Positions 1 to 43,213 are shown, counted from the stretch's first letter. The stretch is DNA of 64,000 nucleotides from Myxococcota bacterium (GCA_052034865.1 JBPOIC010000014.1:1-64000); one strand, 5' to 3'. The notes: generated from the sequence alone by a model not told the origin. Numbers and translations are program-made.

Positions 1-50
1 CGACCTCCCGCGTGACAGGCGGGCGTTCTAACCAACTGAACTACGGCTCC
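1..50 (-). tRNA. tRNA-Asp (anticodon GTC), 5' portion only; 3' end lies before the window start
   Basis: Reverse complement of 1-50 reads GGAGCCG-TA-GTTC-AGTTGGTTA-GAAC-G-CCCGC-CTGTCAC-GCGGG-AGGTCG. This gives a cloverleaf acceptor, D arm and anticodon arm with loop CTGTCAC (GTC). Confidence 0.85.
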
Positions 51-164: not shown

Positions 165-236
165 TGGGCGATGTAGGACTTGAACCTACGACGTCTGCCT
201 TGTAAGGGCAGCGCTCTACCTCTGAGCTAATCGCCC
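165..236 (-). tRNA. tRNA-Val (anticodon TAC)
   Basis: Reverse complement gives GGGCGAT-TA-GCTC-AGAGGTA-GAGC-G-CTGCC-CTTACAA-GGCAG-ACGTC-GTAGG-TTCAAGT-CCTAC-ATCGCCC-A. Acceptor and T arm (GTTCAAGT-like) are canonical and the anticodon loop carries TAC. Confidence 0.85.
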
Positions 237-6611: not shown

Positions 6612-6667
6612 ATTTCCTGTCGAATGAAGTCCATAACCCGAAGTATTTAAAAGGAGGTTTTAAGGAT

Positions 6668-8656
6668 ATGGCCGTTGCAATCGAAGAACTTGAGGATATG
6701 CAGCAGGAAGCAAATCAAAGCAAGATCGACCGAGCCCGTAAATACTCCTTCTACTTTCCCTCCCCAGGAAAACTTGCCTCAGAAAAACTGGATCAAGGGG
6801 GTTCGCGCTTTCTCGAAAAATGCCTCGTGGGTGTTGCCAAGGCAGCCTGGCCTGTTTTCAAACTGATCAATCGTCTTTATCAGGGAAAACCCTTTCAACC
6901 CAAGTGGGCTCCCGCTCCCATTTTAAAATCCAAAGAAAAAACATTTCCTCAATTAGGCTGGCCACGGAGCACCGATTCTCTCTGCCCGGGTTGTGTGAAA
7001 GAAGTCCGTGCTGCCGTTGTCTCGGGTCAAAAAGATTACACCCATCTGATCGAAGGAAATCCTGGAGAAATCAAAGCTCAAATCATTGAAAAAGACGGCC
7101 AGATTTTTATGGTGAAAGAATGTCCCAAGCACGGGAAATTCGAAGATATCATGGCCATTGATTCTGAATTCTTAAAGCGCATTGAAAAACTTTATCCGGG
7201 CCGTGATTTTAAATCTCCCTTAACATCCCTTCGAAACCACGGTACTTCAAGCATTCAATATGGTCGCGGTGCAGTACTCACTCTTGATCTCACCAATCGC
7301 TGCAACATGATGTGTGACCCCTGTTTCATGGATGCCAATCAGGTCGGCTATGTGCATGAGCTTTCCTGGGAAGATCTCAAGGAAATTTTGGACAACTCTC
7401 TTCAGATCAAGCCCCGCAGACAAATGTCCGTTCAGTTCTCCGGTGGTGAGCCCACCCTTTCTCCGTATTTTCTTCAGGCAGTTCGTTACGCGAAAGAAGT
7501 CGGCTATTTCAGCGTACAGGCGGCCACGAATGGCATCCGTTTCGCTCAAGACCCCGATTTTGCCAGTCAGGCCTACGACGCCGGTATGCGCATTGCCTAT
7601 CTTCAGTTTGATGGCGTTGGAAACCTTTCCAATGAACATCGCAAAATTTCCAATCTCTTCGATATCAAGTTGCGTGCCATCACCAACCTGGCCAATGCCG
7701 GAATCGACGTCGTGCTTGTGACAACGATCGTGAATTCCATCAATGACCATCAGGTCGGACCGATCATCGATTTTGCGATTCAGAATTCTGATAAAATCAC
7801 TTTCTGTTCCTTCCAGCCGGTATCATTCACTGGACGTGACGAAGACGTCAGCGACGAAGATCGCGCCCGTCAGCGTTACACGCTCTCACATCTGGCTCGG
7901 GATGTGAAAAAGCAAACAGGAATCTCTGAGCCTTTGCGTGACTGGTTTCCACTTTCAGCGATTGGTCCTTTCTCCGATTTAACCGATTTGATGAAAGGTC
8001 CTGAGCAGGAATGGGGAACCTTGAAGTGCGGCTGTCATCCCAACTGTGGAACCGGCATGGCCCTTATTGTCGATAAACAGAAGAAGAAATGGTTGCCAGT
8101 TACCGAATTCATACACCTGGAAAATATCCTCAAAGACGTCCAGGAAATCGTCGATGCCTGTCAGCCCGCCTGGTTGATGAAGCTTCAAACCGCGTGTTCG
8201 ATCTTACGCAATTACGACCCATCTAAAGCCCCAAAAGAAATGACTCTCAAAGACCTTGTTCGCAAGATCGATAAACAGACCGGCGGTAGCATGACGGCAG
8301 GCAAGATCGATTATGGTGTGGGGAAAGAACGTAAAAAAGATCGTTGGCATATCATGTTTGTGGCAGGAATGTGGTTTCAGGATCTTTTCAATTACGATTT
8401 CCGAAGAACCGAAATGTGCATCATTCCTTATGGAACGCAAAAAGGAGAAATTTCTTTTTGCGCCTACAACACTGGGATCGGCTGGAGACAGATCGTTGAG
8501 GAATTGCATAAAAATGCTTCAGTGAGTGAGTGGTACCGGCAAAAAGGTCGCCACGATGTTTACGCAGGAAATAAACCGATGCATCTTCCCAGCTTCGATC
8601 ACGAGGTGAATGTTCCACCGGCAGAAGCCAGCTCGAAATCGACGGCTATTCACTAA
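6668..8656 (+). CDS. Large radical SAM protein with additional Cys-rich modules (tetraether-synthase/Tes-like candidate)
   Basis: 662 aa. Canonical CxxxCxxC (LTNRCNMMCDPCF) with a downstream SGGEPTL glycine-rich SAM motif. An N-terminal CPGC...ECPKHG module looks like a zinc ribbon or rubredoxin, and a C-terminal KCGCHPNCG motif suggests an auxiliary cluster. Strong AAAGGAGG RBS. Confidence 0.7.
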   Translation: MAVAIEELEDMQQEANQSKIDRARKYSFYFPSPGKLASEKLDQGGSRFLEKCLVGVAKAAWPVFKLINRLYQGKPFQPKWAPAPILKSKEKTFPQLGWPRSTDSLCPGCVKEVRAAVVSGQKDYTHLIEGNPGEIKAQIIEKDGQIFMVKECPKHGKFEDIMAIDSEFLKRIEKLYPGRDFKSPLTSLRNHGTSSIQYGRGAVLTLDLTNRCNMMCDPCFMDANQVGYVHELSWEDLKEILDNSLQIKPRRQMSVQFSGGEPTLSPYFLQAVRYAKEVGYFSVQAATNGIRFAQDPDFASQAYDAGMRIAYLQFDGVGNLSNEHRKISNLFDIKLRAITNLANAGIDVVLVTTIVNSINDHQVGPIIDFAIQNSDKITFCSFQPVSFTGRDEDVSDEDRARQRYTLSHLARDVKKQTGISEPLRDWFPLSAIGPFSDLTDLMKGPEQEWGTLKCGCHPNCGTGMALIVDKQKKKWLPVTEFIHLENILKDVQEIVDACQPAWLMKLQTACSILRNYDPSKAPKEMTLKDLVRKIDKQTGGSMTAGKIDYGVGKERKKDRWHIMFVAGMWFQDLFNYDFRRTEMCIIPYGTQKGEISFCAYNTGIGWRQIVEELHKNASVSEWYRQKGRHDVYAGNKPMHLPSFDHEVNVPPAEASSKSTAIH

Positions 8657-8704
8657 CCATGAATAGAGCTTTCCTCTTAAGAACATTTACCAGACAGAGG
8701 AAAG

Positions 8705-9610
8705 ATGTCAGTGTTTCCCTGGATGTTCAGGGCGTTCTCTCTTGTCGGGAGAGCGCCTTTTTTTCCTTTTTCAGGAATAACAGACTCAAGATTGAAAAAT
8801 GCTATGCAGACTTGGAATGAACAGACACGAACGATTTGGGTCACACTCGCTCCTTTAGTACTCATCAACCTCATCGCTCTCTCCACGGTTCCGATATTTG
8901 CCTACTTCCGCAAAAAAAACCCTTCAGCTACCGATTCCATTGGTGAAGTCAAAAAACGGCATCACTCAAAGTTTTTGAGCCTTTGGTTCAAGGAATACTG
9001 GTACTGGATCACAAGCCCCATCGAAAAACTTGCCCTAGCCGTCGGCCTTACTCCCAATTTTTTTACTACCTTGGGTTTTTTCATCAGTGCCCTGGCCGGC
9101 TATTTTTTTTACCGAGGTTATTGGGGGATGGCGGGTTGGACCTTGATCATCGGAGGATCCTGCGATCTTATGGATGGTCGTGTGGCGCGTGCGACGGGTC
9201 ATACGTCGGTTTCGGGGGCCTTTTATGATTCGGTGATGGATCGATATGGCGAGCTTGTCTGTTTTGCCGGTTTGGCGGGCTATTACCGTAATCATTTTAT
9301 GTTTTGGGTGGTTTTAGCCGCGATTACGGGTTCGATGATGGTGAGTTACACCCGAGCGCGTGGCCAGGCGGCGGGAGTGGATTGCGATAAAGGACCTATG
9401 CAACGACCCGAGAGAATTGTTTATCTCGCGGTAGGATCGATCTTCAGTCCGATGATGGCCTACCTGCTAAGCCCCTGGGGTTCGCTCCCTTCTGAATTTC
9501 TTACCATGCTCGCGCTGATTCTGATTGCCGTGATGACCAATCTCACTGCCTTATATCGTCTTCTATGGGTTTACAAAAGATTGCCTGCCGCCAAAGTACA
9601 TTCCTCATAA
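8705..9610 (+). CDS. CDP-alcohol phosphatidyltransferase family protein
   Basis: Polytopic membrane protein with the D-G-x2-A-R-x8-G-x3-D-x3-D signature (DLMDGRVARATGHTSVSGAFYDSVMDRYGE). Confidence 0.85.
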   Translation: MSVFPWMFRAFSLVGRAPFFPFSGITDSRLKNAMQTWNEQTRTIWVTLAPLVLINLIALSTVPIFAYFRKKNPSATDSIGEVKKRHHSKFLSLWFKEYWYWITSPIEKLALAVGLTPNFFTTLGFFISALAGYFFYRGYWGMAGWTLIIGGSCDLMDGRVARATGHTSVSGAFYDSVMDRYGELVCFAGLAGYYRNHFMFWVVLAAITGSMMVSYTRARGQAAGVDCDKGPMQRPERIVYLAVGSIFSPMMAYLLSPWGSLPSEFLTMLALILIAVMTNLTALYRLLWVYKRLPAAKVHSS

Positions 9611-9626: not shown

Positions 9627-10772
9627 TTGGCGCAACCTGATCTGATGTCATCAGGACAGATGAGGATCTCAAATCACTGCATGCAAAACACCTCTCTCCA
9701 ATCGTCATGTCTCCCAGCCTGCCCTGTTTTTGGTAGCTGTGGAGGGTGTGCGTATCAGCATTTATCCTATCCGGAAGAATTACAACTCAAGCAATCCCAG
9801 ATTCAGAAATTATTTGAAAACCAGCTCGGCCTGTCTGCACCTCATCCAGATCCTATCCTCGCTTCTCCCAAACCCTACCATTATCGCCATCGACTGGATG
9901 TGGGAATTCGAAAAACAAAAGAGGATGGCTTTGTCTTTGGCTTTGTCAATCAGGAGAAAAAACGCCTCATTCCTATCGATAATTGCCCGATTGCCTTGAG
10001 TGCCGTTTCTGATTTTTTGCCCGAGCTTAAACGTCAGGCGATTGAGAAATTTACGGCCGATTATCGGGTGGCCAGTCTGGTGGTAAAATCCGATGATACC
10101 GGGCGCGTACGTTGGGGCGGGATTGGCCGCAGATCACTTCGCTTAAATCCTTCCGATTATTTTTATACCGAAATCCGAAATCGCAAAATTTATTACTCTC
10201 TCGATACTTTTTTTCAGGCCAATCTTTCGATTCTTCCCTTGTTAATGGATCAGATCGAAGCCCTCGTTTCCAGTCATCCCAAAAAAGGATTTCTCGATCT
10301 TTATGGAGGGGTAGGATTGTTTAGCTTTGCCCTGTCTCATCTTTTTTCCAAGATCATCCTGATTGAAAATCACCCGACTTCCACCGAGCTTGCTACCTAT
10401 AATCAATCCATTCATTCACTTCCTTCATTTATAATTCAGAATGGACGTGTGGAAGATCTGCTTCCAGATCTGACAGACTCAATCAATTTTTCAGACTGGG
10501 TGGCCATGATCGATCCACCCCGCAAAGGCCTGGAGCCGAGCGTTATCGATACCCTCACGAAAGCTCAGTCGCTTCAGACGCTTTTATATTTATCCTGCAA
10601 TCCCGAAACTCTGGTCAGAGACTTGAAGCTGTTTTTGAAACAGAATTGGAGGATCGAACGCATCGTGCCGTTCGATTTTTTTCCCAAAACAGCGCATCTG
10701 GAAGTATTGGTAAAGTTGAGTCGAGAAGAAGTCATCTCCTCGCAAATTGTTTCAAAACACCGTATCAATTGA
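9627..10772 (+). CDS. Class I SAM-dependent RNA (uracil-5)-methyltransferase, RumA/TrmA family (no TRAM domain)
   Basis: Fe-S cysteine cluster (CPVFGSCGGC), SAM motif DLYGGVGLFSFAL and a C-terminal nucleophile region. Exact start uncertain, with several in-frame Met. Confidence 0.7.
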   Translation: MAQPDLMSSGQMRISNHCMQNTSLQSSCLPACPVFGSCGGCAYQHLSYPEELQLKQSQIQKLFENQLGLSAPHPDPILASPKPYHYRHRLDVGIRKTKEDGFVFGFVNQEKKRLIPIDNCPIALSAVSDFLPELKRQAIEKFTADYRVASLVVKSDDTGRVRWGGIGRRSLRLNPSDYFYTEIRNRKIYYSLDTFFQANLSILPLLMDQIEALVSSHPKKGFLDLYGGVGLFSFALSHLFSKIILIENHPTSTELATYNQSIHSLPSFIIQNGRVEDLLPDLTDSINFSDWVAMIDPPRKGLEPSVIDTLTKAQSLQTLLYLSCNPETLVRDLKLFLKQNWRIERIVPFDFFPKTAHLEVLVKLSREEVISSQIVSKHRIN

Positions 10773-19356: not shown

Positions 19357-20259
19357 ATGCCGACGATGTCTTCTGATTCACTTCGTAATCCAAAATCTTA
19401 CTCCTGGCTGAAACAAGCTTTAGATCACCTGGTTGCCAGGTATAGCTCAGCTTACCTGTCCTCCGATCCTCTCTGGTTTCCCCATCAATATCAAAATCCG
19501 CTCGATCAGGAACTCGTTGCCTTTTTATCCTCTGCCTGTGCGTATGGAAGTGTGCCGCAGATTTTAAAACTCTTGCGCCAGATTCTTAAAGAACTGGGCG
19601 ATTCTCCGGTAGACTGGATTTGCCGGTATCAGCCTCAGAAATATCCACGATTATTTGAGGGAATCTATTACCGCTTTCATCAGGCGAAAGACTTTCGCAT
19701 GCTGATTTATTTGCTTTCCAGAATCTATCTCAAAGAAGGTTCGCTAGGCGCTTCATTTCAAAAACACTTCTCGCCTCACGATTCAAACATAGGGCCGGCC
19801 CTTGCGAGCTGGACAGAAGAGGTTTTGGCGAGCGATCTCAAACCTTTTTATTCTTCTGGAAAACTACCGCCCCGCTCCTGCGTACGCTTTTTTTTCTCAT
19901 CACCTAATGAAGGATCCGCATGCAAACGTCTCAACCTGTTTCTACGCTGGATGGTGCGGGGACCGGATGGGATCGACTTGGGCTTATGGAAATTTATCGA
20001 TCCTTCCAAATTGATCATACCGTTAGACACCCATATTTATCGCGTCGCTCAGTCTTTAAATCTCACCCAGCGAAAATCACCCAACTGGAGAATGGCAGAA
20101 GAAATTACAGAGTACTTAAAGCGCCTGGATCCCAACGATCCCATTCGATACGATTTTGCGCTCACACGACTTGGAATTCTGGATCTTTGTCCTCCTCAAG
20201 AATTGGGAATTGTTTGTCGCAAGTGTCAAAAGACAGGCAGGTGTTTGTTTTTAACCTAA
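19357..20259 (+). CDS. Conserved hypothetical protein, TIGR02757/DUF2400-like (HhH-GPD-related)
   Basis: The segment IIPLDTHIYRVAQSLNL resembles the VDTHVxRVxxRLGL helix of HhH-GPD glycosylases. Cys-rich C-terminus CRKCQKTGRC. Confidence 0.45.
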   Translation: MPTMSSDSLRNPKSYSWLKQALDHLVARYSSAYLSSDPLWFPHQYQNPLDQELVAFLSSACAYGSVPQILKLLRQILKELGDSPVDWICRYQPQKYPRLFEGIYYRFHQAKDFRMLIYLLSRIYLKEGSLGASFQKHFSPHDSNIGPALASWTEEVLASDLKPFYSSGKLPPRSCVRFFFSSPNEGSACKRLNLFLRWMVRGPDGIDLGLWKFIDPSKLIIPLDTHIYRVAQSLNLTQRKSPNWRMAEEITEYLKRLDPNDPIRYDFALTRLGILDLCPPQELGIVCRKCQKTGRCLFLT

Positions 20260-22565
20260 AAAATCGGTCCGATTTTTCTCATCTTTTTATCTTCGATCTT
20301 TGAAAGGATGGCTGGTTCGGCAAAGCGCGCAAGTTCTGAAAGCAAATCGGCCGCCCAACGGTAGATATTGTTTTCGGTGACTTGCGATTTTAATCGAATC
20401 ATGCGCTTCATCTGTTCATCCGGCGGCATTTCCAGGGCAGAACGAAGGGCTTCGGCAAAACTTCCACGATCGTAAGGATTCACCTGCAGGGCGTCGGTGA
20501 AATCCTGAGAGACGCCCGCAAATTCTGAAAGAATCAGTACTCCGTCTTCATTCCTTCTTGCCGAAACAAATTCCTTGGCTACCAGGTTCATCCCATCGGC
20601 CAGCGAGCTCACCACGCAGATCTCTGCCATTCTTAAAAAAAGATAAACAATTTCGGGCGAATGATTCTGCTTTAAAAGGTGAATGGGTTTCCAGGTTTCA
20701 GAACCATGACGCCAGTTGATTTCATCAATTCTCTTTTCAATCTCCGTCATCAAATGGCGATATTGAGGGATGTGCACGCGAGTGGGTGCGCCCAGTTGTA
20801 TAAAACTGACCTGCCCCCGATAGTGTGGATATCGCTCCAGAAAAAGATCGATAGCCGCCAGGCGTTCTGGAATTCCCTTTGTGTAATCAAGCCGATCAAC
20901 ACTGATGATCAGCCGTGTATTTATGATTCTCAGTTCTTCGCGGATCCTTGTTGCCTGTGTTTCCAGTTCCTTCTCAGGAATGCGATTTCGTTCACTCCAG
21001 GGCTGAATGCTGATCGGAAAAGGTTTGACCAGGGTTGTGCCCCCCTCGTGCAGAATCGCCAGGCGATCCCAATCGATTTGTACCGGAAGAAACGTGTTCA
21101 CGGTATGCAAAAACTGGGTGCAGTAAGAAGATAGATGAAAGCCAATCAGATCCGCGCCCAGCATGCCTTTAAGAATTTCCTTTTTCCAGGGACAGATCCT
21201 GAACACCTCGGGTGTAGGCCAGGGAATGTGCCAGAAAAGGCCGATCACGGCATCGGATCTTTCCTTGCGAATCATTTGAGGAAGAAGAGTGAAATGATAA
21301 TCCTGAATCAGAAAAAATGGAGTTTGCTGATCACATTCTTCGAGTGCTTGTTTAGAAAATTTTAAATTCACGTTTTGGTATTGTTTCCATTCCTCTTCTT
21401 CAAAGTGCGGTCTTGAGTAGGTTTGATGGCACAAGGGCCATAAGGTTTCATTGGAAAAACCGTAATAATATCCGTCCTCTTCTTCTTTCGAAAGCCAGAC
21501 CCGCTTTAAGGTGTAATAAGGAGCATCCGGTGGAACCAGAAGTTTCCCATGACGATCGCTCGTTTCACGATCTGCCTCCCCAGATCCATGCGCGATCCAA
21601 AGCCCGCTGATCGCCTTTAAAAGAGGATCTAGCGCCGTTACAACACCACTAGCAGGGATCTGGAGTTGAATCTTTCCTGCTTCGCGAGTGTGCACGTAGG
21701 GTTCACGATTTGAAATGACGATCAGCTTTCTATCGCCAAAGTGTGTAAAAGCATGGGCCTTTAAACGGGCGGAGGTCCAAAGATCACGTACCTGTCTTGA
21801 CCTTGAGACCTCACGTGCCGTCTCGCGTGCAGATCTGAGTTTGGCTGCAAGCTCGGCGACTTCTTCGGAAACTGGAGCTAAAAGAGAAGTAGGGGGAGTG
21901 GAATAGGTCGCTTGCGATTTTACAGAACGTATCCATTCCATAAATTTGAGGATTGAGCGCTGATAGGAAAAACGTGAGAGAAAATAGGTAAAGGCGGAGG
22001 CCAGGGCTGCAAAAAAAATCAGTACAGAAGCCGAGATAATAAGGTTCGATCGAGTCCGCTGTTCGATATAGGTCGCGTCGTGAGCGACAATAAGTGCTCC
22101 GCTGATCTGACCGGTTCGCTCAACTAAGGGATCCAGAAAAAAATGAAAAGTTCGGGATCCACTCTTTCCCATCCAGAGTTGAGTTTCTGATTTTTGAATA
22201 GCTTTGCGAACCGCTGGATCCGAGCAGGAAATGATTTCGGCAAGGGGAGCCGAGCGTGCAATGAGGGTCTCATCAGGGGTGCAGAGAAGAATTCCTAACG
22301 TCCTTTCCTGCCCTGCAAGTCTTTCCGCCAGATTCTCCTCATTCGAAGGTGGGGGTCGATTCAGGGCACGGCGTGCAACTGGCTCAATTCCGCGGGCAAT
22401 GATTTTCGCCCGACGATTGAGGTCGTCGACCATTTGTCCCCGCTCCTGTAAAATCCGGTATCCGAAAAATAAAAGTCCACACAAGAAAAGAAAAAAAAGG
22501 ATAGGCAGGTTGAGTTTGAGAAAAAGGGACCTTTGAGCGTCCGATGGGTTTCTCATGGAATTCAA
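20256..22565 (-). CDS. Trehalose-6-phosphate synthase (GT20, OtsA-like) fused to an N-terminal two-TM sensor-like domain
   Basis: The C-terminal ~470 aa is GT20-like (LIVISNREPY, WIAHGSG, FFLHIPWP-like WHIPWPTPE, ISVDRLDYTKGI, CVVSSLADGMNLVAKEF). The N-terminal ~270 aa has two predicted TM helices flanking a ~130-aa extracytoplasmic segment. Confidence 0.8.
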   Translation of the reverse strand: MNSMRNPSDAQRSLFLKLNLPILFFLFLCGLLFFGYRILQERGQMVDDLNRRAKIIARGIEPVARRALNRPPPSNEENLAERLAGQERTLGILLCTPDETLIARSAPLAEIISCSDPAVRKAIQKSETQLWMGKSGSRTFHFFLDPLVERTGQISGALIVAHDATYIEQRTRSNLIISASVLIFFAALASAFTYFLSRFSYQRSILKFMEWIRSVKSQATYSTPPTSLLAPVSEEVAELAAKLRSARETAREVSRSRQVRDLWTSARLKAHAFTHFGDRKLIVISNREPYVHTREAGKIQLQIPASGVVTALDPLLKAISGLWIAHGSGEADRETSDRHGKLLVPPDAPYYTLKRVWLSKEEEDGYYYGFSNETLWPLCHQTYSRPHFEEEEWKQYQNVNLKFSKQALEECDQQTPFFLIQDYHFTLLPQMIRKERSDAVIGLFWHIPWPTPEVFRICPWKKEILKGMLGADLIGFHLSSYCTQFLHTVNTFLPVQIDWDRLAILHEGGTTLVKPFPISIQPWSERNRIPEKELETQATRIREELRIINTRLIISVDRLDYTKGIPERLAAIDLFLERYPHYRGQVSFIQLGAPTRVHIPQYRHLMTEIEKRIDEINWRHGSETWKPIHLLKQNHSPEIVYLFLRMAEICVVSSLADGMNLVAKEFVSARRNEDGVLILSEFAGVSQDFTDALQVNPYDRGSFAEALRSALEMPPDEQMKRMIRLKSQVTENNIYRWAADLLSELARFAEPAILSKIEDKKMRKIGPIF

Positions 22566-22652: not shown

Positions 22653-23339
22653 TCAGGATGAGATTTTCAGAATGAGGTCTGGGAGTAGTGAAACGCCTAT
22701 CGAATTCGTTACCACGCTTAAGGTAAAGTCCTCTTTTACAAAATTTTTCCAATAAAGCGTTATGTGTTCGTGGACGGTAAGGGTTTGCCCGCTCCAGTCC
22801 GCTTTAATCTCAGTCGGTGAAACTTTTCCAAAAATTCCTTCTCCCAAAAATTTCAGGGTGGCTTCTTTTAGGGTCCAAAGCTCAGTCAGTCGTGAATGGT
22901 AGAGAGTCGGGTTTTCTTCCAGGCCCTGTAATTCGAGCTTTTCCTGAGGATGACAGAGAAAGTCTTGTAGCCGTTTGGCATGACGATGGATCTGAAATTC
23001 TTCCAGATCAATTCCCACCGGACAATAAGACCCTACTGCCAGAGCGACCTGATTCTTTTTGTGACTGAGACTCACTGAAACTTCCGAGAGTAATTTTCCT
23101 CTCAAAAACAAAACCGGTTTTAAATGCGGAGGATTTGAATGAAGGGAAATCTGGGTAAGGTCGGTTTCGCCGTATGTCTTGCTCACCCAGGTCTTCAGTA
23201 AAGATCGCCCGGTGAGAAATTGTTGCCTGCGTTGAAGAGGAAGAAAGCCCTGATAAAAGCCCGTTTCCTCTTTTGAAAGGATCGAAAGGTTTTCATCCCC
23301 TAAAATTTTTGTCCATGTGAGAAACAGAGAGGGTTGCAC
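22653..23339 (-). CDS. 4'-phosphopantetheinyl transferase (Sfp/EntD superfamily)
   Basis: GIDLEEF and WTLKEATLKFLGEG motifs (Mg-binding Asp/Glu, W-x-x-KEA-x-x-K). Confidence 0.75.
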   Translation of the reverse strand: MQPSLFLTWTKILGDENLSILSKEETGFYQGFLPLQRRQQFLTGRSLLKTWVSKTYGETDLTQISLHSNPPHLKPVLFLRGKLLSEVSVSLSHKKNQVALAVGSYCPVGIDLEEFQIHRHAKRLQDFLCHPQEKLELQGLEENPTLYHSRLTELWTLKEATLKFLGEGIFGKVSPTEIKADWSGQTLTVHEHITLYWKNFVKEDFTLSVVTNSIGVSLLPDLILKISS

Positions 23340-23719: not shown

Positions 23720-24862
23720 TCAGAGAAGGTCACAGGTCAGTCGTGTTACCGACTCTACGTGATAGGTCTGCGGAAACATATCGATTGCTTGAGTGAAATC
23801 ATGTCGATAGCCCAGATTTATCAGTGAGCGAAGATCTCGCGCCAGGGTGGAGGGATCGCACGAGACATAGACAAGGACTGGAATTTTAAGACGCGCAATG
23901 CTTTCCATGCTCTCGATGGCTCCCCGTCTCGGAGGATCCAGAAGGAGACGATCAAACTTTTCCTTTCTTTCCCAAAGATCTTCAGTGGCTCGATGGGCGG
24001 CAGCCTGAATCCATCGAATATTTCGGATGTGTTTTTGGGATGAGCGCTTTTCTCCCTTCAAAATCGAAGTCTCGCTCATTTCAACCGCACTCACAAACGC
24101 GCTTTGCTGAGCGATCGGAAAAGTAAAATTTCCCTCACCGGCAAAAAGCTCCAGAACTTTTTCTTTTAAACTCAGACTCAGGGCTTCAATTACTTTTTCG
24201 ATCAGTTTTTGATTTTGAAGCGAGTTCGTCTGTGTGAAACCCGATTCGCCCTTGGGGTCAGGCTCCAGAACGATTTTATTTTCTTCGTTTCTTATCTCGA
24301 TTTCGTGCCGCGTTACTTTATCTTTTTGGATTAAGAGCTGGGCAAGTTTTTTGGCCTCCGGAATTTTTTCATTCAGACTTTCTTCGGCGATGAGACAGCG
24401 CTCGATGGGAATCACTTCATTTGAATGCATGCGATGAAACCCCACCTCGCCCTGGCGCGAGACCTGGAGCCGAATGCGGTTGCGATAGTGCTGGGGGATA
24501 GGAGAAGGGATTGGAGGCAGTAGAGTGGGCTCTGGAATCTTGGCGATCCGCTGAAGGGCGTCTTGCAAGAGTCTTTGCTTGAATTCGAGTTGCCCCTCCT
24601 GCGTGACGTGTTGCCACTGACAGCCGCCACATTTGAAAAAATAAGGGCAGGGAGGGGAAATGCGGTGAGGAGATTTTTTCAAAATTTCTACGATTCGCAC
24701 GCGGGCGTAGTCTTTTTTATCTTCGACGATCTCCGTTTTTAGCTTATCGCCAGGAACGCCCCAGGGGATGAAGATTTTTTTTCCTTGATGCGTCGCAATC
24801 GCTTCGCCGCCCAGGACAAAACGGTCGGGGATGAGCTCCAGAATTTGTCGTGTTTTGTTCAT
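23720..24862 (-). CDS. 23S rRNA (uracil-5)-methyltransferase RumA/RlmD-like with TRAM domain
   Basis: N-terminal TRAM-like beta barrel, Fe-S Cys cluster (PPCPYFFKCGGC) and SAM fold LELFAGEGNFTFPIA. Confidence 0.8.
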   Translation of the reverse strand: MNKTRQILELIPDRFVLGGEAIATHQGKKIFIPWGVPGDKLKTEIVEDKKDYARVRIVEILKKSPHRISPPCPYFFKCGGCQWQHVTQEGQLEFKQRLLQDALQRIAKIPEPTLLPPIPSPIPQHYRNRIRLQVSRQGEVGFHRMHSNEVIPIERCLIAEESLNEKIPEAKKLAQLLIQKDKVTRHEIEIRNEENKIVLEPDPKGESGFTQTNSLQNQKLIEKVIEALSLSLKEKVLELFAGEGNFTFPIAQQSAFVSAVEMSETSILKGEKRSSQKHIRNIRWIQAAAHRATEDLWERKEKFDRLLLDPPRRGAIESMESIARLKIPVLVYVSCDPSTLARDLRSLINLGYRHDFTQAIDMFPQTYHVESVTRLTCDLL

Positions 24863-40613: not shown

Positions 40614-41387
40614 GTGATTACTTCTTTTAATCATAAAAAACTTTTCATTGTAGGCACCGATACAGGGGTTGGCAAAACCCTTGTGACTGCGGCTTTGGCG
40701 GCTTATCTGTCTTCTATTGGTTATCAGGTAGGGGTAATGAAACCCCTGGAATCGGGATGTTCGCCTTCACTCGACACAAAGGGTCAGAAAATCTTAATCC
40801 CGCAGGATGCGCTTTATTTGCAGTCGATGTCTCAAACCCAAGAAAATTTGGATCAGATCAATCCTTATCGCTTCGAGGCCCCGCTGGCCCCTGGAGTGGC
40901 GGCGGATATTGTGGGGGTCAAAGTTGATTTGGATTTCATCCTTCAGACTGCTGAATCAATGACTCGCCGACAGGATATTATCTTGATTGAAGGGGCGGGT
41001 GGTCTGATGGTTCCTTTAAGTTCCAGTTTTCTTGGAATCGATCTAATTGAAAAAATGAACGCTTCCGTTCTGCTCGTGGGAAGGGCCGGATTGGGAACGA
41101 TTAATCACTGCCTGCTCACACTCTCCGCGCTTGAAAACAGAAATATTCCCGTTGTGGGAATTCTCCTTAATCACACAGATCCGAAAACAGATCTTTCTTC
41201 CCATACAAATCTCCAAACTCTTTCCCGTTGGACCTCAGTGCCTGTGTGGGGAGAGTTTTCATTTCTTAAAAATCCTCTCGATCGTCTGGAGTTGATAGAA
41301 GAGGCAAAGAAATTTCATCCTTATTTAAAATCTCTTCTGGATGATTTTTCTTCCAGCGGGTTTCAGCCTCGTCCAAAGCCCGAATGA
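40614..41387 (+). CDS. bioD: Dethiobiotin synthetase BioD
   Basis: P-loop FIVGTDTGVGKT and EGAGG motif. Start abuts the bioA stop. Confidence 0.85.
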   Translation: MITSFNHKKLFIVGTDTGVGKTLVTAALAAYLSSIGYQVGVMKPLESGCSPSLDTKGQKILIPQDALYLQSMSQTQENLDQINPYRFEAPLAPGVAADIVGVKVDLDFILQTAESMTRRQDIILIEGAGGLMVPLSSSFLGIDLIEKMNASVLLVGRAGLGTINHCLLTLSALENRNIPVVGILLNHTDPKTDLSSHTNLQTLSRWTSVPVWGEFSFLKNPLDRLELIEEAKKFHPYLKSLLDDFSSSGFQPRPKPE

Positions 41388-42880
41388 GAGGACGCTGGCA
41401 GAGAAGGGGGAGTGAACGAAGAGGGTTGTGTGGATGGGGGGAATAGAGTGGTTTTCTGTTTTGAAAATGTGTTTTGTGCGATGGGATCAAAGTGGTGTGC
41501 AAAGGACTGATAGGTTTTATCGATCCATTGAGGATCGATATCCTTTACCTGAACAAAGACCTTACGCACATCGAGAGGAATTTTTACAATCGGTTGTAAG
41601 GATTCATGAGCAAGGACCTCTTTCAGAATATCTTCCCTATCAAATCCCCTCACTTCTGCAATTTGGGCGAGCAGGGGGTGAAAATCCCTGAAAAGTGAAG
41701 ATCGGCCCTCTTTGCCTGTCAGAGCAGAAATAAGGCCGGCATAAGGGAAAATTCCTTCCGAGACCTGAGCCATCCGGCAGGGAAGAGGATCGACCTGAAG
41801 GGATGTTTTAAACAGATGACGAATGTGGTGTTTTTTGTCTTTGAGCAAAAACTCTGGGCGATACGGAACGCCACCTCTGTCTTGAGCGAGTTTCCGCGAG
41901 GCATCTTCACATTCTTCCTGAATGAAAAAACCGATTCGATCGGCCAGTGAGACGGCCTCTTCGCTATCGTAGGGAATGCGCAAAATGTAGAGAAGGTCTG
42001 CCCAACCCATCACGCCGAGTGAAATGGCGCGGTAATGTTGATGGGTCCGCTTGGAGGCAAGGGTAGGGTAGCAATAAAAGTCGATGGCATTATCCAAAAA
42101 ATGAATGGCTCTTTGAATGCTACAGCGCAGCTTTGCCCAGCTGATTTCTTCCTCTTCGATAAATGCCGCAAGATTCAGGTAGGCGGTTGGAATATGAGCT
42201 GGATCGATTTGTTCCAGAGAGGGATCCAAAAATAAATCACTGGGGGAATAAGTTTCCGGACGGGTTTGAGAAGAAAGATTTCCGAGGTAGGGTTGTCCTG
42301 ATTTTAGATTGGCTTTCAGCAAAGCTCTTCCAGGTAAAAAACGCAGGTGAGTCATTTCTTCATAGAAGGCTTGGGATCTGGTGCATGGATCTGAGAAAGC
42401 ATCATATTCCAGATCGATGGCGGCCAAAACCTGGCTTAAGTCCTGAAAATATTGTCGGGCATGGATCTGCAAGGTTTGCCGGTCTAAACCGCTTTCAAGA
42501 TTAAGATGGTGTGTCAGCGTTGAAAGATTACGTTCTTCCCAGATAAGTGTTGGGACCGAAGAGAGTTCTGATTCAGCAGGTGCTTGTTTTTGGGAAGGAA
42601 AGTTGGATGGATGGAAGATGGATTTCTCATTTTGAACTGCAGGGCCTGAGATGGAAAAAAGCGAGAGAATTCCCATTTCCATCAATCGGGAGCGAACAAG
42701 GTCTGAAATCCTGATCAGAGTAAGATTATTTGTATGGGGGTTTTGATCTTCTGGATCGAATCGCTCTGAGAGCAAAAGGCTCAGTGAAGCAGTCATTCTG
42801 GAATTGTCTGGCAAAAATAGATTATGCATCGGTTTAGTCTCATTGAAGCCAGGTTCCAAAAATTCTGAGATGGGCGACAT
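41363..42880 (-). CDS. Ribonucleotide reductase class II-like protein, truncated and catalytically degenerate (possible pseudogene or neofunctionalised domain)
   Basis: The central region (YLNLAAFIEEE...FLDNAIDF...ISLGVMGWADLLYILRIPYDSEEA) matches the RNR C-terminal barrel segment SINL-LDNVID-RRIGLGVMG-LGIPYDSEEA. The NPCGE / SCNLGS catalytic cysteine motifs and the N-terminal ~500 aa of a real NrdJ/NrdA are absent. Confidence 0.5.
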   Translation of the reverse strand: MSPISEFLEPGFNETKPMHNLFLPDNSRMTASLSLLLSERFDPEDQNPHTNNLTLIRISDLVRSRLMEMGILSLFSISGPAVQNEKSIFHPSNFPSQKQAPAESELSSVPTLIWEERNLSTLTHHLNLESGLDRQTLQIHARQYFQDLSQVLAAIDLEYDAFSDPCTRSQAFYEEMTHLRFLPGRALLKANLKSGQPYLGNLSSQTRPETYSPSDLFLDPSLEQIDPAHIPTAYLNLAAFIEEEEISWAKLRCSIQRAIHFLDNAIDFYCYPTLASKRTHQHYRAISLGVMGWADLLYILRIPYDSEEAVSLADRIGFFIQEECEDASRKLAQDRGGVPYRPEFLLKDKKHHIRHLFKTSLQVDPLPCRMAQVSEGIFPYAGLISALTGKEGRSSLFRDFHPLLAQIAEVRGFDREDILKEVLAHESLQPIVKIPLDVRKVFVQVKDIDPQWIDKTYQSFAHHFDPIAQNTFSKQKTTLFPPSTQPSSFTPPSLPASSHSGFGRG

Positions 42881-43213
42881 ATCCACAGTCCTTTGACGGT
42901 TATCCTCAGTTTATTCACCCTTCATCCACATTTAATTCACAGATTATCCACAACATGCAGTGGTTAGCTCATATAAACTATCAATATATAGTGGTGTCAC
43001 TTTGCGTCAATGAATTTGAAAGTTGGGATCTTGACGGTTTAATTTTCAGAATCATTTTAAGTCCTTAAACGCGAAAAAAATTTAGCGGTCCTTCAAAAAA
43101 TCTGAGAAAACTAAAGATGAGATGAAGGATAAATAAAAACTCTTTTTGTTTTTAAAGACTTATAAAAAATGAGGAGGTTTGATTAAAAATTTTCAAAGTG
43201 AATATTTTTTAAG

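What the first reader, a model, noticed from the sequence alone, without database searches (positions are those of the whole stretch)
6668..9610. Large multi-cluster radical SAM enzyme paired with a CDP-alcohol phosphatidyltransferase (candidate membrane-lipid modifying module)
The 662-aa radical SAM protein has the canonical CxxxCxxC, an N-terminal CxxC...CxxH zinc-ribbon or rubredoxin-like module and a C-terminal CGCHPNC cluster motif. It is far larger than housekeeping radical SAM enzymes. It is followed 48 bp downstream by a CDP-alcohol phosphatidyltransferase on the same strand. Size and extra-cluster architecture resemble archaeal tetraether synthase (Tes / GDGT-MAS) and bacterial membrane-spanning-lipid synthase families, so a role in unusual (ether or membrane-spanning) lipid synthesis is plausible.
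Basis: partly seen in the sequence, partly recalled or inferred. Interest (0 to 1): 0.6.

Follow-up and report, generated by a model that had tools for sequence, protein, structure and literature searches.

The report
Bacterial Tes-like lipid enzyme, inositol-lipid synthase
An uncultured bacterium carries a homologue of the archaeal enzyme that welds two lipid tails into membrane-spanning lipids, next to a dedicated inositol-phospholipid-type head-group enzyme; this pairing recurs in related genomes and gives a compact, testable candidate for bacterial membrane-spanning lipid synthesis.

Summary
ORF 6668-8656 (662 aa) is a radical SAM protein with CxxC...CxxH, CxxxCxxC and CGCHPNC motifs. The next gene on the same strand is a CDP-alcohol phosphatidyltransferase. 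One correction: that gene most likely starts at 8804, not 8705. The gap is then 147 bp and holds a terminator-like hairpin.

The radical SAM protein is a bacterial-type homologue of archaeal tetraether synthase Tes/GDGT-MAS (PDB 7TOL, E 2.7e-71; predicted fold TM 0.85). It keeps the rubredoxin-like site, the SAM cluster and the C-terminal cluster with its Met and Tyr. It lacks the N-terminal auxiliary cluster and scores below NCBIfam's Tes cut-off (333 versus 450 bits).

The transferase is of the phosphatidylinositol-phosphate synthase type, and both phosphate-binding arginines are kept.

The Tes-like family is large and already described, in Acidobacteriota, Gemmatimonadota and Polyangia among others. 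Its function is still untested. Adjacency to this transferase subfamily is confined to one terminal clade. About 19 loci were checked directly, with shuffled neighbours and both orientations, and many also carry a MarR-like regulator.

Most likely role: head-group synthesis plus tail-to-tail coupling, giving inositol-phosphate-capped membrane-spanning lipids. This is inferred, not shown. Moderate interest.

The parts
6651..6657 (+). Shine-Dalgarno sequence AAGGAGG, 10 nt upstream of the radical SAM start codon
   Evidence: Read directly from the sequence.
6668..8656 (+). Bacterial-type Tes/GDGT-MAS homologue, a radical SAM protein of 662 aa
   Evidence: Pfam Zn_ribbon_HMPTM plus Radical_SAM. 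NCBIfam Tes 333 bits, below the 450 cut-off. PDB 7TOL E 2.7e-71. Model pLDDT 80, pTM 0.86, and Foldseek to 7TOM/7TOL E 1e-31, TM 0.85.
6809..6967 (+). Conserved N-terminal extension (residues about 48-100) that M. jannaschii GDGT-MAS lacks. It contains an amphipathic helix (48-70) and the motif KPFQPKWAPAP...GWPR.
   Evidence: W61, N68, W80, P94, G97, P99 and R100 are invariant in 48 homologues. The helix is predicted with pLDDT above 90. Hydrophobic moment 1.8. A membrane-association role is inferred, not tested.
6983..7132 (+). Rubredoxin-like site C106xxC109 ... C152xxH155, with an insertion of about 22 residues relative to the archaeal enzyme
   Evidence: Matches the CX2C...CX2H iron site of GDGT-MAS (PMC9433317). 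Alignment. Invariant.
7196..7270 (+). Region that in archaeal Tes holds the N-terminal auxiliary [4Fe-4S] motif CX3CX2C. Here it reads ...LRNHGTSSIQYGRG with no cysteine.
   Evidence: Alignment with Mj GDGT-MAS and archaeal-type representatives. Archaeal-type sequences carry two CX3CX2C motifs 25 residues apart, whereas the bacterial type has one.
7301..7324 (+). Radical SAM cluster motif C212x3C216x2C219
8027..8461 (+). C-terminal auxiliary-cluster region: C454-G-C456-H-P-N-C460-G, M568 (equivalent to Mj Met439), C584, Y588 (equivalent to Mj Tyr459) and C598
   Evidence: Alignment to 7TOL and to archaeal-type representatives. The residues are invariant in 48 homologues. The roles of Met439 and Tyr459 come from PMC9433317.
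8729..8769 (+). Terminator-like hairpin (perfect 13-bp stem, 5-nt loop) followed by a T-run, between the two genes
   Evidence: It lies inside the 8705-8803 extension of the ORF and argues for the 8804 start.
8804..9610 (+). PIP-synthase-like CDP-alcohol phosphatidyltransferase, 268 aa. The alternative annotated start at 8705 gives 301 aa. It has seven predicted helices, including an extra N-terminal transmembrane helix.
   Evidence: Pfam CDP-OH_P_transf. NCBIfam archaetidylinositol-phosphate synthase 137.5 bits, Bacteroides-type PIP synthase 139, actinobacterial PIPS 101, pgsA only 19.8. Model pLDDT 91. Best folds are PIP synthases 6WMV, 6H5A and 5D92. Start choice.
9164..9241 (+). CDP-alcohol phosphotransferase signature D154xxD157G158xxA161R162x8G171xxxD175xxxD179 (numbering of the 301-aa ORF)
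   Evidence: All eight signature residues are invariant in the 14-sequence alignment A2. In the 46-sequence alignment A4 (one search's counterpart) seven are invariant and G158 is nearly invariant (at least 90%). Signature definition from PMC4634129.
9404..9559 (+). Acceptor-site arginines: R234-P-E-R237 (RxxR motif, R237 equivalent to MtPIPS R155) and R285 (equivalent to MtPIPS R195)
   Evidence: Mapped through the phmmer alignment to M. tuberculosis PgsA1 6H53. Invariant in the subfamily. Role in binding the phosphate of inositol-1-phosphate from PMC4634129.

Best explanation
Two neighbouring genes encode a lipid tail-coupling enzyme and a lipid head-group enzyme that most likely act on the same lipids.

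Gene 1 (6668-8656) is a bacterial-type homologue of archaeal tetraether synthase (Tes/GDGT-MAS). By analogy with the solved archaeal enzyme, it would work as follows. The SAM-bound [4Fe-4S] cluster makes a 5'-deoxyadenosyl radical, which abstracts hydrogen from the terminal carbon of a lipid tail. The lipid radical is parked as a C-S bond on the C-terminal [4Fe-4S] cluster (ligands C460, C584, C598 and labile M568). A second SAM activates a second tail, which attacks that carbon and forms a C-C bond. Two SAM are used per bond. The bacterial enzyme does this with one auxiliary cluster fewer, because it has no N-terminal [4Fe-4S]. It also carries a conserved N-terminal amphipathic extension that may dock it on the membrane.

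Gene 2 (most likely 8804-9610) is a membrane CDP-alcohol phosphatidyltransferase of the phosphatidylinositol-phosphate synthase type. It probably transfers the phosphatidyl (or dialkylglycerophospho) group of a CDP-activated lipid to inositol-1-phosphate or a similar phosphorylated polyol.

The proposed pathway is that head-group-bearing lipids made by gene 2 are the preferred substrates of gene 1. The product would be membrane-spanning lipids of the iso-diabolic-acid or brGDGT kind, capped with phospho-inositol ('phosphohexose').

Shown here: homology, cofactor motifs, folds, and the conserved neighbourhood. Inferred: the substrates, the products, the order of the steps, and any physical interaction between the two proteins.
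For: Radical SAM protein:
- The top NCBIfam family is Tes (2e-99).
- PDB 7TOL matches at E 2.7e-71 over residues 135-625.
- The model superposes on 7TOM/7TOL with TM 0.85-0.86 and E 1e-31, while the next hit, MoaA, is at 3e-8.
- The rubredoxin site, the SAM cluster, the three C-terminal cluster cysteines, the Met439 equivalent (M568) and the Tyr459 equivalent (Y588) are invariant in 48 homologues.
- Orthologues at about 60% identity occur in Acidobacteriota, including Ca. Solibacter usitatus MAGs. The cultured strain Ellin6076 makes brGDGTs and was chosen for study because of its Tes homologue (PMC10087280).

Transferase:
- NCBIfam scores are 137-139 bits to archaeal and Bacteroides inositol-phosphate lipid synthases, against 19.8 bits to pgsA.
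- The best folds are PIP synthases (E 4e-8, TM about 0.8), with PgsA at only 3e-2.
- The full 8-residue signature is present, and both phosphate-binding arginines are invariant.

Linkage:
- The two genes are adjacent in the window and in L002, L081-L084, L090 and L171.
- They are also adjacent in 11 metagenome loci reached from the transferase side.
- Orientation is tandem or convergent, and the flanking genes are otherwise different.
- All directly verified linked genome loci fall in one terminal clade of a neighbour-joining tree. In that clade 34 of 64 database members share a contig length with a transferase homologue. Outside it the figure is 0 of 54.

Context from the literature:
- Tail coupling is thought to follow head-group addition (PMC13274423).
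- GDGT-MAS binds phospholipids with their head groups facing outward.
- The brGDGT intact polar lipids of S. usitatus carry phosphohexose at one or both ends. I infer from composition that this mass also fits phospho-inositol.
Against: - No bacterial Tes homologue has been tested biochemically or genetically in the literature I could search.
- Known producers of diabolic and iso-diabolic acid in Thermotogales and Clostridia lack Tes homologues and use Mss instead. Only 3 of 14 iso-diabolic-acid-producing Acidobacteria had a Tes homologue under strict criteria (PMC13159169).
- The protein is below the curated Tes cut-off and lacks one metal site.
- Adjacency is absent from most of the family (L003-L080, L085-L088). 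It is also absent from one member inside the linked clade, L089.
- A terminator-like hairpin separates the two genes here.
- The window contains no inositol-1-phosphate synthase, ether-lipid (plsA, ger, elbD, agps) or branched-chain fatty-acid genes.
- The tree is neighbour-joining without support values. The contig-length match is only a proxy.
Confidence: 0.5

Rival explanations
1. The two genes are neighbours by descent only. The Tes-like enzyme modifies lipid tails. The transferase is simply this lineage's general inositol-phospholipid (or other head-group) synthase, with no special relation to the products of the radical SAM enzyme.
For: - Adjacency is restricted to one clade and is missing in L089, which lies inside that clade.
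- Transferase homologues at 35-48% identity mostly stand alone.
- A terminator-like hairpin lies between the genes in the window.
- Some pairs are convergent and so cannot be co-transcribed.
Against: - The pair persists while every other neighbour changes. The flanks are RimP/NusA in L081 and L171, MreB/PBP2 in L082, squalene-synthase-like genes in L083, ResB/CcsA in L084 and L090, and a histidine kinase and a methyltransferase in the window.
- It survives inversions.
- A shared MarR-like regulator accompanies it in at least 9 loci.
- 0 of 54 family members outside the clade show the proxy signal, against 34 of 64 inside.
Confidence: 0.25
2. The radical SAM enzyme carries out a different radical modification of lipids. 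Examples are intramolecular macrocyclisation of one lipid (as GDGT-MAS also does), mid-chain cross-linking or ring formation. The products would not be membrane-spanning.
For: - Archaeal Tes homologues differ in product. MA_1114 gave only traces of macrocyclic archaeol (PMC8941075).
- The bacterial type lacks the N-terminal cluster and has extra invariant residues C454, C456 and H457, so its chemistry could differ.
- Tes homologues are missing from many known membrane-spanning-lipid producers.
Against: - The residues tied to the C-S intermediate mechanism are all kept: the C-terminal cluster ligands, the Met439 equivalent and the Tyr459 equivalent.
- S. usitatus, which carries an orthologue, makes brGDGTs and brGTGTs, the expected product and intermediate.
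Confidence: 0.15
3. The system does not act on membrane lipids. Either the radical SAM enzyme acts on a small molecule (the old MJ0619 annotation as a pterin methyltransferase, or the TrsS-type organometallic system), or the transferase makes a soluble inositol-phosphate solute like DIPP synthase under an osmoregulator-like repressor.
For: - The second-best NCBIfam family is TrsS at 226 bits.
- Some database entries still carry the name 7,8-dihydro-6-hydroxymethylpterin dimethyltransferase.
- The associated regulator weakly resembles the choline regulator CudC (64 bits, cut-off 218).
- DIPP synthase is a weaker NCBIfam and fold match of the transferase.
Against: - The TrsS score is far below its cut-off of 490 and below the Tes score.
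- The pterin activity of MJ0619 could not be reproduced by the authors of the structure, who found bound phospholipids instead.
- No cytidylyltransferase domain or gene accompanies the transferase, as it does in IPCT-DIPPS.
- PIPS-type models outscore DIPPS (139 versus 53 bits), and PIP synthases are the best folds.
Confidence: 0.05

Closest known systems
Archaeal tetraether synthase Tes / GDGT-MAS (M. jannaschii MJ0619, PDB 7TOL/7TOM; M. acetivorans MA_1486)
   Same: - Homologous along the full length: phmmer 2.7e-71, 31% identity, model TM 0.85.
- The rubredoxin-like CX2C...CX2H site, the radical SAM motif and the C-terminal cluster cysteines are kept.
- The Met439 and Tyr459 equivalents are kept.
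   Different: - No N-terminal auxiliary [4Fe-4S] motif.
- About 100 extra N-terminal residues, with a conserved amphipathic helix.
- An insertion of about 22 residues in the rubredoxin module.
- Extra invariant residues C454, C456 and H457.
- 333 bits, below the 450-bit equivalog cut-off.
- The host is a bacterium, with no sign of archaeal isoprenoid ether-lipid genes in the window.
Bacterial 'Tes homologues' of Acidobacteriota and other phyla (Zeng et al. 2022), e.g. in brGDGT-producing Ca. Solibacter usitatus
   Same: Same protein family. Identity is 57-65% across phyla, the architecture is identical, and the same residues are invariant. This is the group the window protein belongs to.
   Different: In those genomes the gene is not next to a CDP-alcohol phosphatidyltransferase: 0 of 78 loci L003-L080, plus L085-L087. 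The window's clade adds the linked transferase and, in many members, a MarR-like regulator.
Membrane-spanning lipid synthase Mss (Thermotoga, Thermoanaerobacter; Sahonero-Canavesi et al. 2022)
   Same: [quoted passage not shown] Only Mss has experimental support.
   Different: Mss is described as only remotely related to Tes. I had no Mss sequence to compare directly. Mss producers lack Tes homologues.
Phosphatidylinositol-phosphate synthases (M. tuberculosis PgsA1 6H53, R. salmoninarum PIPS 5D92, Bacteroides BT_1523 type) and archaeal archaetidylinositol-phosphate synthase
   Same: - Same fold: TM about 0.8, 27-29% identity.
- Full CDP-alcohol signature.
- RxxR motif and the second arginine that bind the phosphate of inositol-1-phosphate.
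   Different: - Below all three curated cut-offs: 137.5 versus 180, 139 versus 350, and 101 versus 170.
- An additional N-terminal transmembrane helix.
- A separate subfamily of a few hundred sequences, mostly from uncultured bacteria.
- Donor and acceptor untested.
TrsS radical SAM (seleno)protein (NCBIfam NF045646)
   Same: Related radical SAM lineage. It is the second-best NCBIfam hit, covering residues 134-418.
   Different: 226 bits against a cut-off of 490. The match covers only the N-terminal half, and none of the TrsS gene neighbourhood is present.

Membership tests
Tes / GDGT-MAS (archaeal tetraether synthase) | Radical SAM CX3CX2C cluster motif | tested here: met
   C212x3C216x2C219. 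Pfam Radical_SAM 4.9e-16.
Tes / GDGT-MAS (archaeal tetraether synthase) | N-terminal rubredoxin-like iron site CX2C...CX2H | tested here: met
   C106, C109, C152 and H155. Pfam Zn_ribbon_HMPTM 2.7e-14. Aligned with archaeal-type sequences, with an insertion of about 22 residues.
Tes / GDGT-MAS (archaeal tetraether synthase) | N-terminal auxiliary [4Fe-4S] cluster (Mj C73/C77/C80 plus His) | tested here: not met
   There are no cysteines in the aligned segment, which reads LRNHGTSSIQYGRG. There is a single CX3CX2C in all bacterial-type sequences. Most archaeal-type representatives have two, 25 residues apart.
Tes / GDGT-MAS (archaeal tetraether synthase) | C-terminal auxiliary [4Fe-4S] cluster with labile Met439, and conserved Tyr459 | tested here: met
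   C460, C584 and C598 are kept. M568 aligns with Met439 and Y588 with Tyr459. All are invariant in 48 homologues. This is alignment-based only; metal content was not measured.
Tes / GDGT-MAS (archaeal tetraether synthase) | Score at or above the curated equivalog cut-off (NF045702, 450 bits) | tested here: not met
   333.4 bits.
Tes / GDGT-MAS (archaeal tetraether synthase) | Overall four-domain fold | tested here: met
   The AlphaFold model (pLDDT 80, pTM 0.86) matches 7TOL/7TOM at E 1e-31 and TM 0.85-0.86 relative to target. The segment corresponding to the N-cluster domain is low-confidence (residues 193-197).
Tes / GDGT-MAS (archaeal tetraether synthase) | Catalyses C-C coupling of the terminal carbons of two lipid tails | not testable with these tools
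   This needs expression and lipid analysis. No bacterial homologue has been tested.
Bacterial Tes-homologue family (Zeng et al. 2022) | Bacterial protein with significant full-length similarity to functional archaeal Tes (their criterion: BLASTP e < 1e-50, identity above 20-30%) | tested here: met
   phmmer 2.7e-71 to Mj GDGT-MAS, with 31-35% identity. Identity is 57-65% to homologues in Acidobacteriota, Gemmatimonadota and Polyangia.
Phosphatidylinositol-phosphate synthase (PIPS / AIPS) | CDP-alcohol phosphotransferase signature D1xxD2G1xxAR...G2xxxD3xxxD4 | tested here: met
   D154, D157, G158, A161, R162, G171, D175 and D179.
Phosphatidylinositol-phosphate synthase (PIPS / AIPS) | Two arginines that bind the phosphate of inositol-1-phosphate (MtPIPS R155 and R195) | tested here: met
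   R237 (in the R234-P-E-R237 motif) and R285 align with them and are invariant in the subfamily.
Phosphatidylinositol-phosphate synthase (PIPS / AIPS) | Score at or above a curated equivalog cut-off | tested here: not met
   NF040950 137.5 versus 180. NF052561 139.2 versus 350. NF045883 100.8 versus 170.
Phosphatidylinositol-phosphate synthase (PIPS / AIPS) | Six-helix transmembrane fold with a juxtamembrane helix | tested here: met
   The model (pLDDT 91) has PIP synthases 6WMV, 6H5A, 6H59 and 5D92 as its best folds. It has one extra N-terminal helix.
Phosphatidylinositol-phosphate synthase (PIPS / AIPS) | Uses CDP-diacylglycerol (or CDP-archaeol) plus L-myo-inositol-1-phosphate | not testable with these tools
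   No inositol-1-phosphate synthase was seen in the window or in related loci. That search used only a crude motif and is inconclusive.
Phosphatidylglycerophosphate synthase PgsA (the name given by some sources) | Match to the pgsA equivalog model (TIGR00560, cut-off 109 bits) | tested here: not met
   19.8 bits. The PgsA structure 7DRK/7DRJ is only a weak fold match, E 3e-2.
TrsS radical SAM (seleno)protein | Match to the equivalog model (NF045646, cut-off 490 bits) | tested here: not met
   226.4 bits, covering residues 134-418 only.

The most novel reading that the evidence does not exclude
A two- or three-gene cassette (MarR-like regulator, Tes-like radical SAM enzyme, dedicated PIP-synthase-like transferase) makes phospho-inositol-capped membrane-spanning lipids in an uncultured lineage labelled Deltaproteobacteria. 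If so, it would tie the tail-coupling step genetically to a specific head group. It would also suggest that the 'phosphohexose' head group of brGDGT intact polar lipids is inositol phosphate, and it would point to a non-acidobacterial source of brGDGT-like lipids.
Probability: 0.3. Interest if true: 0.7.

Novelty: new variant of a known kind. Interest (0 to 1): 0.5.

Why it matters
Branched GDGTs are among the most used terrestrial palaeotemperature and pH proxies. Their producers and biosynthesis are still only partly known, and the bacterial Tes homologues proposed in 2022 have not been tested.

A compact, conserved pair (often a trio with a regulator) gives a concrete construct for heterologous expression. 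It also gives a concrete hypothesis about the substrate: head-group-bearing, probably inositol-phosphate, lipids.

[quoted passage not shown] It indicates that this cluster is dispensable for whatever reaction the bacterial enzymes perform.

If the function differs from tail coupling, gene-based surveys that count Tes homologues as brGDGT markers would need revising.

Tried and rejected
Rejected assignments:
- TrsS: 226 bits against a cut-off of 490, N-terminal half only.
- The old pterin methyltransferase (HMPTM) name: not reproducible according to the authors of the structure.
- The PgsA name used by JGI for the transferase: 19.8 bits and a weak fold match.
- Reading the 8705 start as certain: the homologue alignment and the hairpin favour 8804.

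Things that led nowhere:
- An exact-sequence look-up of the window protein's contig found nothing on record.
The lineage can only be described by the NCBI labels of relatives, such as 'Deltaproteobacteria bacterium' or 'bacterium'.
- A regex search for inositol-1-phosphate synthase motifs in the window and 167 loci found nothing. It was crude, so it is inconclusive.
- The rest of the window holds no ether-lipid or membrane-spanning-lipid genes. It contains housekeeping genes only: RecN, SMC, SecA, LigA, NadA, the biotin operon and flagellar export.
- No paper in the library combines Tes, brGDGT and CDP-alcohol phosphatidyltransferase. The one paper combining tetraether synthase and PIP synthase is a general review of archaeal lipids.

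Caveats on my own tests:
- The contig-length proxy for linkage is conservative. P0003 and P0010 failed it yet are linked.
- L001 (75% identity) is uninformative, because the gene sits at a contig end.

Full report
**1. What is in the sequence**

The window carries an ORF at 6668-8656 (+) of 662 aa. The next ORF on the same strand runs 8705-9610.

The first ORF has a strong ribosome-binding site, AAGGAGG, 10 nt before its ATG.
- C106xxC109...C152xxH155
- C212x3C216x2C219
- C454-G-C-H-P-N-C460

The second ORF matches Pfam CDP-OH_P_transf.

One detail needs correcting. Conservation among homologues of the second protein starts near residue 44 of the long ORF. Most homologues are 250-290 aa long. 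One gene call for the identical protein is 268 aa, while NCBI's is 301 aa. A perfect 13-bp hairpin with a U-run lies at 8729-8759, inside the supposed N-terminal extension. The gene therefore most likely starts at ATG 8804. The intergenic distance is then 147 bp rather than 48 bp, and the first gene appears to have its own terminator or attenuator.

**2. The radical SAM protein**

Sequence and fold evidence:
- Pfam finds Zn_ribbon_HMPTM plus Radical_SAM.
- The best NCBIfam family is tetraether lipid synthase Tes (2e-99, 333 bits). This is below the curated cut-off of 450. TrsS is second (226 bits, cut-off 490). Everything else matches only the radical SAM core.
- The only strong PDB sequence match is GDGT-MAS of M. 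jannaschii (7TOL, 2.7e-71, residues 135-625).
- An AlphaFold model built on 48 homologues (pLDDT 80, pTM 0.86; low confidence mainly in the cluster-binding loops) matches 7TOM/7TOL at E 1e-31 and TM 0.85-0.86 relative to the target. The next hit, MoaA, is at 3e-8 and covers only the core.

I compared the protein with the published structure (PMC9433317), which has one rubredoxin-type Fe and three [4Fe-4S] clusters.
- Kept: the rubredoxin-like site, the SAM cluster, and the C-terminal cluster cysteines (C460, C584, C598). The equivalents of the labile ligand Met439 (M568) and of Tyr459 (Y588) are also kept. All are invariant in 48 homologues.
[quoted passage not shown] The aligned segment reads LRNHGTSSIQYGRG.

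This loss is a property of the whole bacterial family. In a search of 1.84 billion representative proteins, the archaeal-type relatives (31-38% identity, about 500-550 aa) mostly carry two CX3CX2C motifs 25 residues apart. All bacterial-type sequences have one.

The bacterial type also has:
- a conserved N-terminal extension with an amphipathic helix (residues 48-70, pLDDT above 90);
- an insertion of about 22 residues in the rubredoxin module;
- extra invariant residues C454, C456 and H457.

It has no transmembrane helix.

**3. The family is large and already described**

The best 80 are mostly Acidobacteriota, including Ca. Solibacter usitatus, Bryobacteraceae, Vicinamibacterales, Pyrinomonadaceae and Terriglobia. 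Gemmatimonadota and Polyangia are also represented. These proteins are 57-65% identical to the window protein.

Zeng et al. 2022 reported such bacterial Tes homologues and proposed a role in brGDGT synthesis (PMC8941075). S. usitatus, which has such a homologue, makes brGDGTs and brGTGTs.

Later papers and a 2026 review still describe the activity of the bacterial homologues as unconfirmed. Known diabolic and iso-diabolic acid producers in Thermotogales and Clostridia use a different radical SAM enzyme, Mss, and lack Tes homologues (PMC13159169). So the protein itself is a new member of a known but functionally untested group.

**4. The transferase**

- NCBIfam places it nearest to inositol-phosphate lipid synthases. 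Scores are 137.5 bits for archaeal archaetidylinositol-phosphate synthase, 139 for the Bacteroides BT_1523-type PIP synthase and 101 for actinobacterial PIPS. All are below cut-off. PgsA scores only 19.8 bits.
- The PDB sequence search finds M. tuberculosis PgsA1 (a PIP synthase) best, at 5e-15.
- A confident model (pLDDT 91) has PIP synthases as its best folds (E 4e-8 to 3e-7, TM about 0.8). AF2299 and DIPP synthase come next, and PGP synthase is far behind at 3e-2.
- The eight-residue CDP-alcohol signature is complete.
- Mapping through the alignment to MtPIPS shows that both arginines are present. Mutagenesis has shown that these bind the phosphate of inositol-1-phosphate. R155 (in the RxxR motif) corresponds to R237, and R195 corresponds to R285. 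Both are invariant in the subfamily.
- The subfamily has an extra N-terminal transmembrane helix.
- It comprises a few hundred sequences, almost all from uncultured bacteria.

It is PIPS-like, but not demonstrably a PIP synthase.

**5. Is the pairing meaningful?**

Starting from the radical SAM side:
- The transferase is adjacent in the window, L002, L081, L082, L083, L084 and L171, at 68-80% radical SAM identity.
- Orientation is tandem or convergent, and the flanking genes are otherwise unrelated: RimP/NusA/IF2, MreBCD/PBP2, squalene-synthase-like genes, or ResB/CcsA.
- It is absent from L003-L080 (Acidobacteriota and others), and from L085, L086 (Latescibacterota), L087 (Pendulispora) and L088. 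It is also absent from L089, which lies inside the linked clade.

In a neighbour-joining tree of 245 sequences, all directly verified linked loci fall in one terminal clade. In that clade 34 of 64 database members share a contig length with a member of the transferase subfamily. Outside it the figure is 0 of 54. The proxy is conservative, because two members that failed it proved to be linked.

Starting from the transferase side:
- A randomly chosen member (P0150) sits next to a Tes-like gene.
- In 80 metagenome loci, a Tes-like gene is adjacent in 11. All of these have transferase identity of at least 45% to the window's protein. None below 41% is linked.

A MarR/CudC-like regulator lies immediately upstream of the radical SAM gene in at least nine linked loci. 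It also accompanies the transferase homologue in loci that lack the Tes-like gene. It is not found in the window.

The pairing is therefore conserved in one lineage through rearrangements, which suggests selection for proximity. It is not a property of the family as a whole.

**6. Most likely mechanism**

Three points from the literature bear on this:
- GDGT-MAS binds phospholipids with their head groups outward and tolerates ester lipids.
- Recent work argues that tail coupling follows head-group addition.
- S. usitatus brGDGT intact polar lipids carry phosphohexose at one or both ends. I infer from composition that this mass is shared by phospho-inositol.

From these I propose that the transferase supplies inositol-phosphate-type lipids. 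The Tes-like enzyme then couples the terminal carbons of two tails, using two SAM per bond and a C-S intermediate on the C-terminal cluster. The result would be membrane-spanning lipids.

Homology, cofactor motifs, folds and neighbourhood are shown. Substrates, products and the order of steps are inferred.

Points against:
- The window contains no inositol-1-phosphate synthase and no ether-lipid or iso-fatty-acid genes.
- A terminator-like hairpin lies between the two genes.
- No bacterial Tes homologue has any experimental data.

**7. Verdict**

The radical SAM protein belongs to the known bacterial Tes-homologue family and is not an orthodox Tes. The curated cut-off and the N-terminal-cluster feature were both tested and not met.

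Three things appear unreported in the literature I could search:
- the clade-specific cassette with a dedicated PIPS-like transferase and, often, a MarR-like regulator;
- the family-wide absence of the N-terminal cluster;
- the conserved N-terminal extension.

Interest is moderate. The result is not surprising to a specialist, but it offers a compact, directly testable handle on an open question: what bacterial Tes homologues do, and how brGDGT-like lipids acquire their head groups.

Noticed in passing
L002, L081, L084, L090, L094, L096, L098, L102, L112, L171 (upstream of the Tes-like gene); L103, L108, L110, L111, L114, L115, L151 (next to the transferase homologue only): A MarR/CudC-like HTH regulator of about 190-216 aa (Pfam MarR_2, weak; NCBIfam CudC 64 bits, cut-off 218) travels with the transferase subfamily, with or without the Tes-like gene. 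No copy was found in the window by tblastn at E <= 1e-6.
   Followed up: partly
L108 290-1192, L111 3036-3971 (-), L115 3543-4475 (-): In loci where the transferase homologue (44-48% identity) has no Tes-like neighbour, it is flanked by a different, small radical SAM protein. This is 312-337 aa with CX3CX2C and a C-terminal CxxCxC. Its best NCBIfam hit is ScmE at 75 bits (cut-off 400), and it shares only the core domain with the window protein (23% identity). The same head-group enzyme may therefore pair with another radical SAM enzyme.
   Followed up: partly
P0019, P0079, P0100, P0105 (C-termini, alignment A1): Several bacterial Tes homologues end in a cysteine-rich tail (S/G)CGxGCGC(H/G). 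The window protein lacks it and ends ...KSTAIH.
   Followed up: no
P0246, P0248, P0257, P0291 (representative clusters, 37-45% identity): Intermediate clusters of the family have lost most of the C-terminal cluster cysteines. The motifs degenerate to, for example, VNAHPDAS, and C584 is replaced. P0248 still retains one cysteine, at the C456-equivalent position (YSCHADGG). These may be paralogues with another function, or inactive.
   Followed up: no
L082, L083, L084, L090 (and L095 for enolase): An Mrr_cat restriction-endonuclease-like gene sits directly beside the transferase gene in L082, L083, L084 and L090. Enolase lies close by in L083, L084 and L090, but not in L082. In L095 the transferase homologue sits next to enolase without any Tes-like gene.
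   Followed up: no
L116 6233-7054 (+): A PAP2-type lipid phosphatase lies downstream of a transferase homologue (42% identity). It is a possible candidate for the still unidentified PIP phosphatase step.
   Followed up: no
window 9627-10772 (+) and 23720-24862 (-): There are two RlmD/TrmA-like uracil-C5 methyltransferase paralogues in the window. The first starts 17 nt after the transferase stop, but it is not conserved next to the pair in any related locus.
   Followed up: partly
window 43214-44371 (-) and 22653-23339 (-): A divergent KAS III / type III PKS-like condensing enzyme (FabH models 54-73 bits, far below cut-off) and a 4'-phosphopantetheinyl transferase. They could relate to unusual fatty-acid starter or chain chemistry, but they are about 14-35 kb from the pair.
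   Followed up: no
window 20256-22565 (-): A trehalose-6-phosphate synthase (GT20) with an N-terminal extension of about 280 residues that has no Pfam match.
   Followed up: no
window 41363-42886 (-): A 507-aa ORF matches only about 110 residues of the ribonucleotide reductase barrel domain (Pfam profile positions 230-336 of 523). It may be a fragment or a divergent relative.
   Followed up: no
window 1-50 (-), 165-236 (-); 58711-63479 (-): Two tRNA genes lie at the left edge of the window, the first cut by the window end. A flagellar export and switch cluster (FliR-like, FliP, FliM, FliK-like) lies at the right edge, so the organism is probably motile.
   Followed up: no
window 6668-6805 (residues 1-46 of the radical SAM protein): An additional leader of about 45 residues (predicted helix 5-26, low confidence) is shared only with the closest relatives (P0019, P0037, P0038). 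It is absent from most of the family.
   Followed up: no
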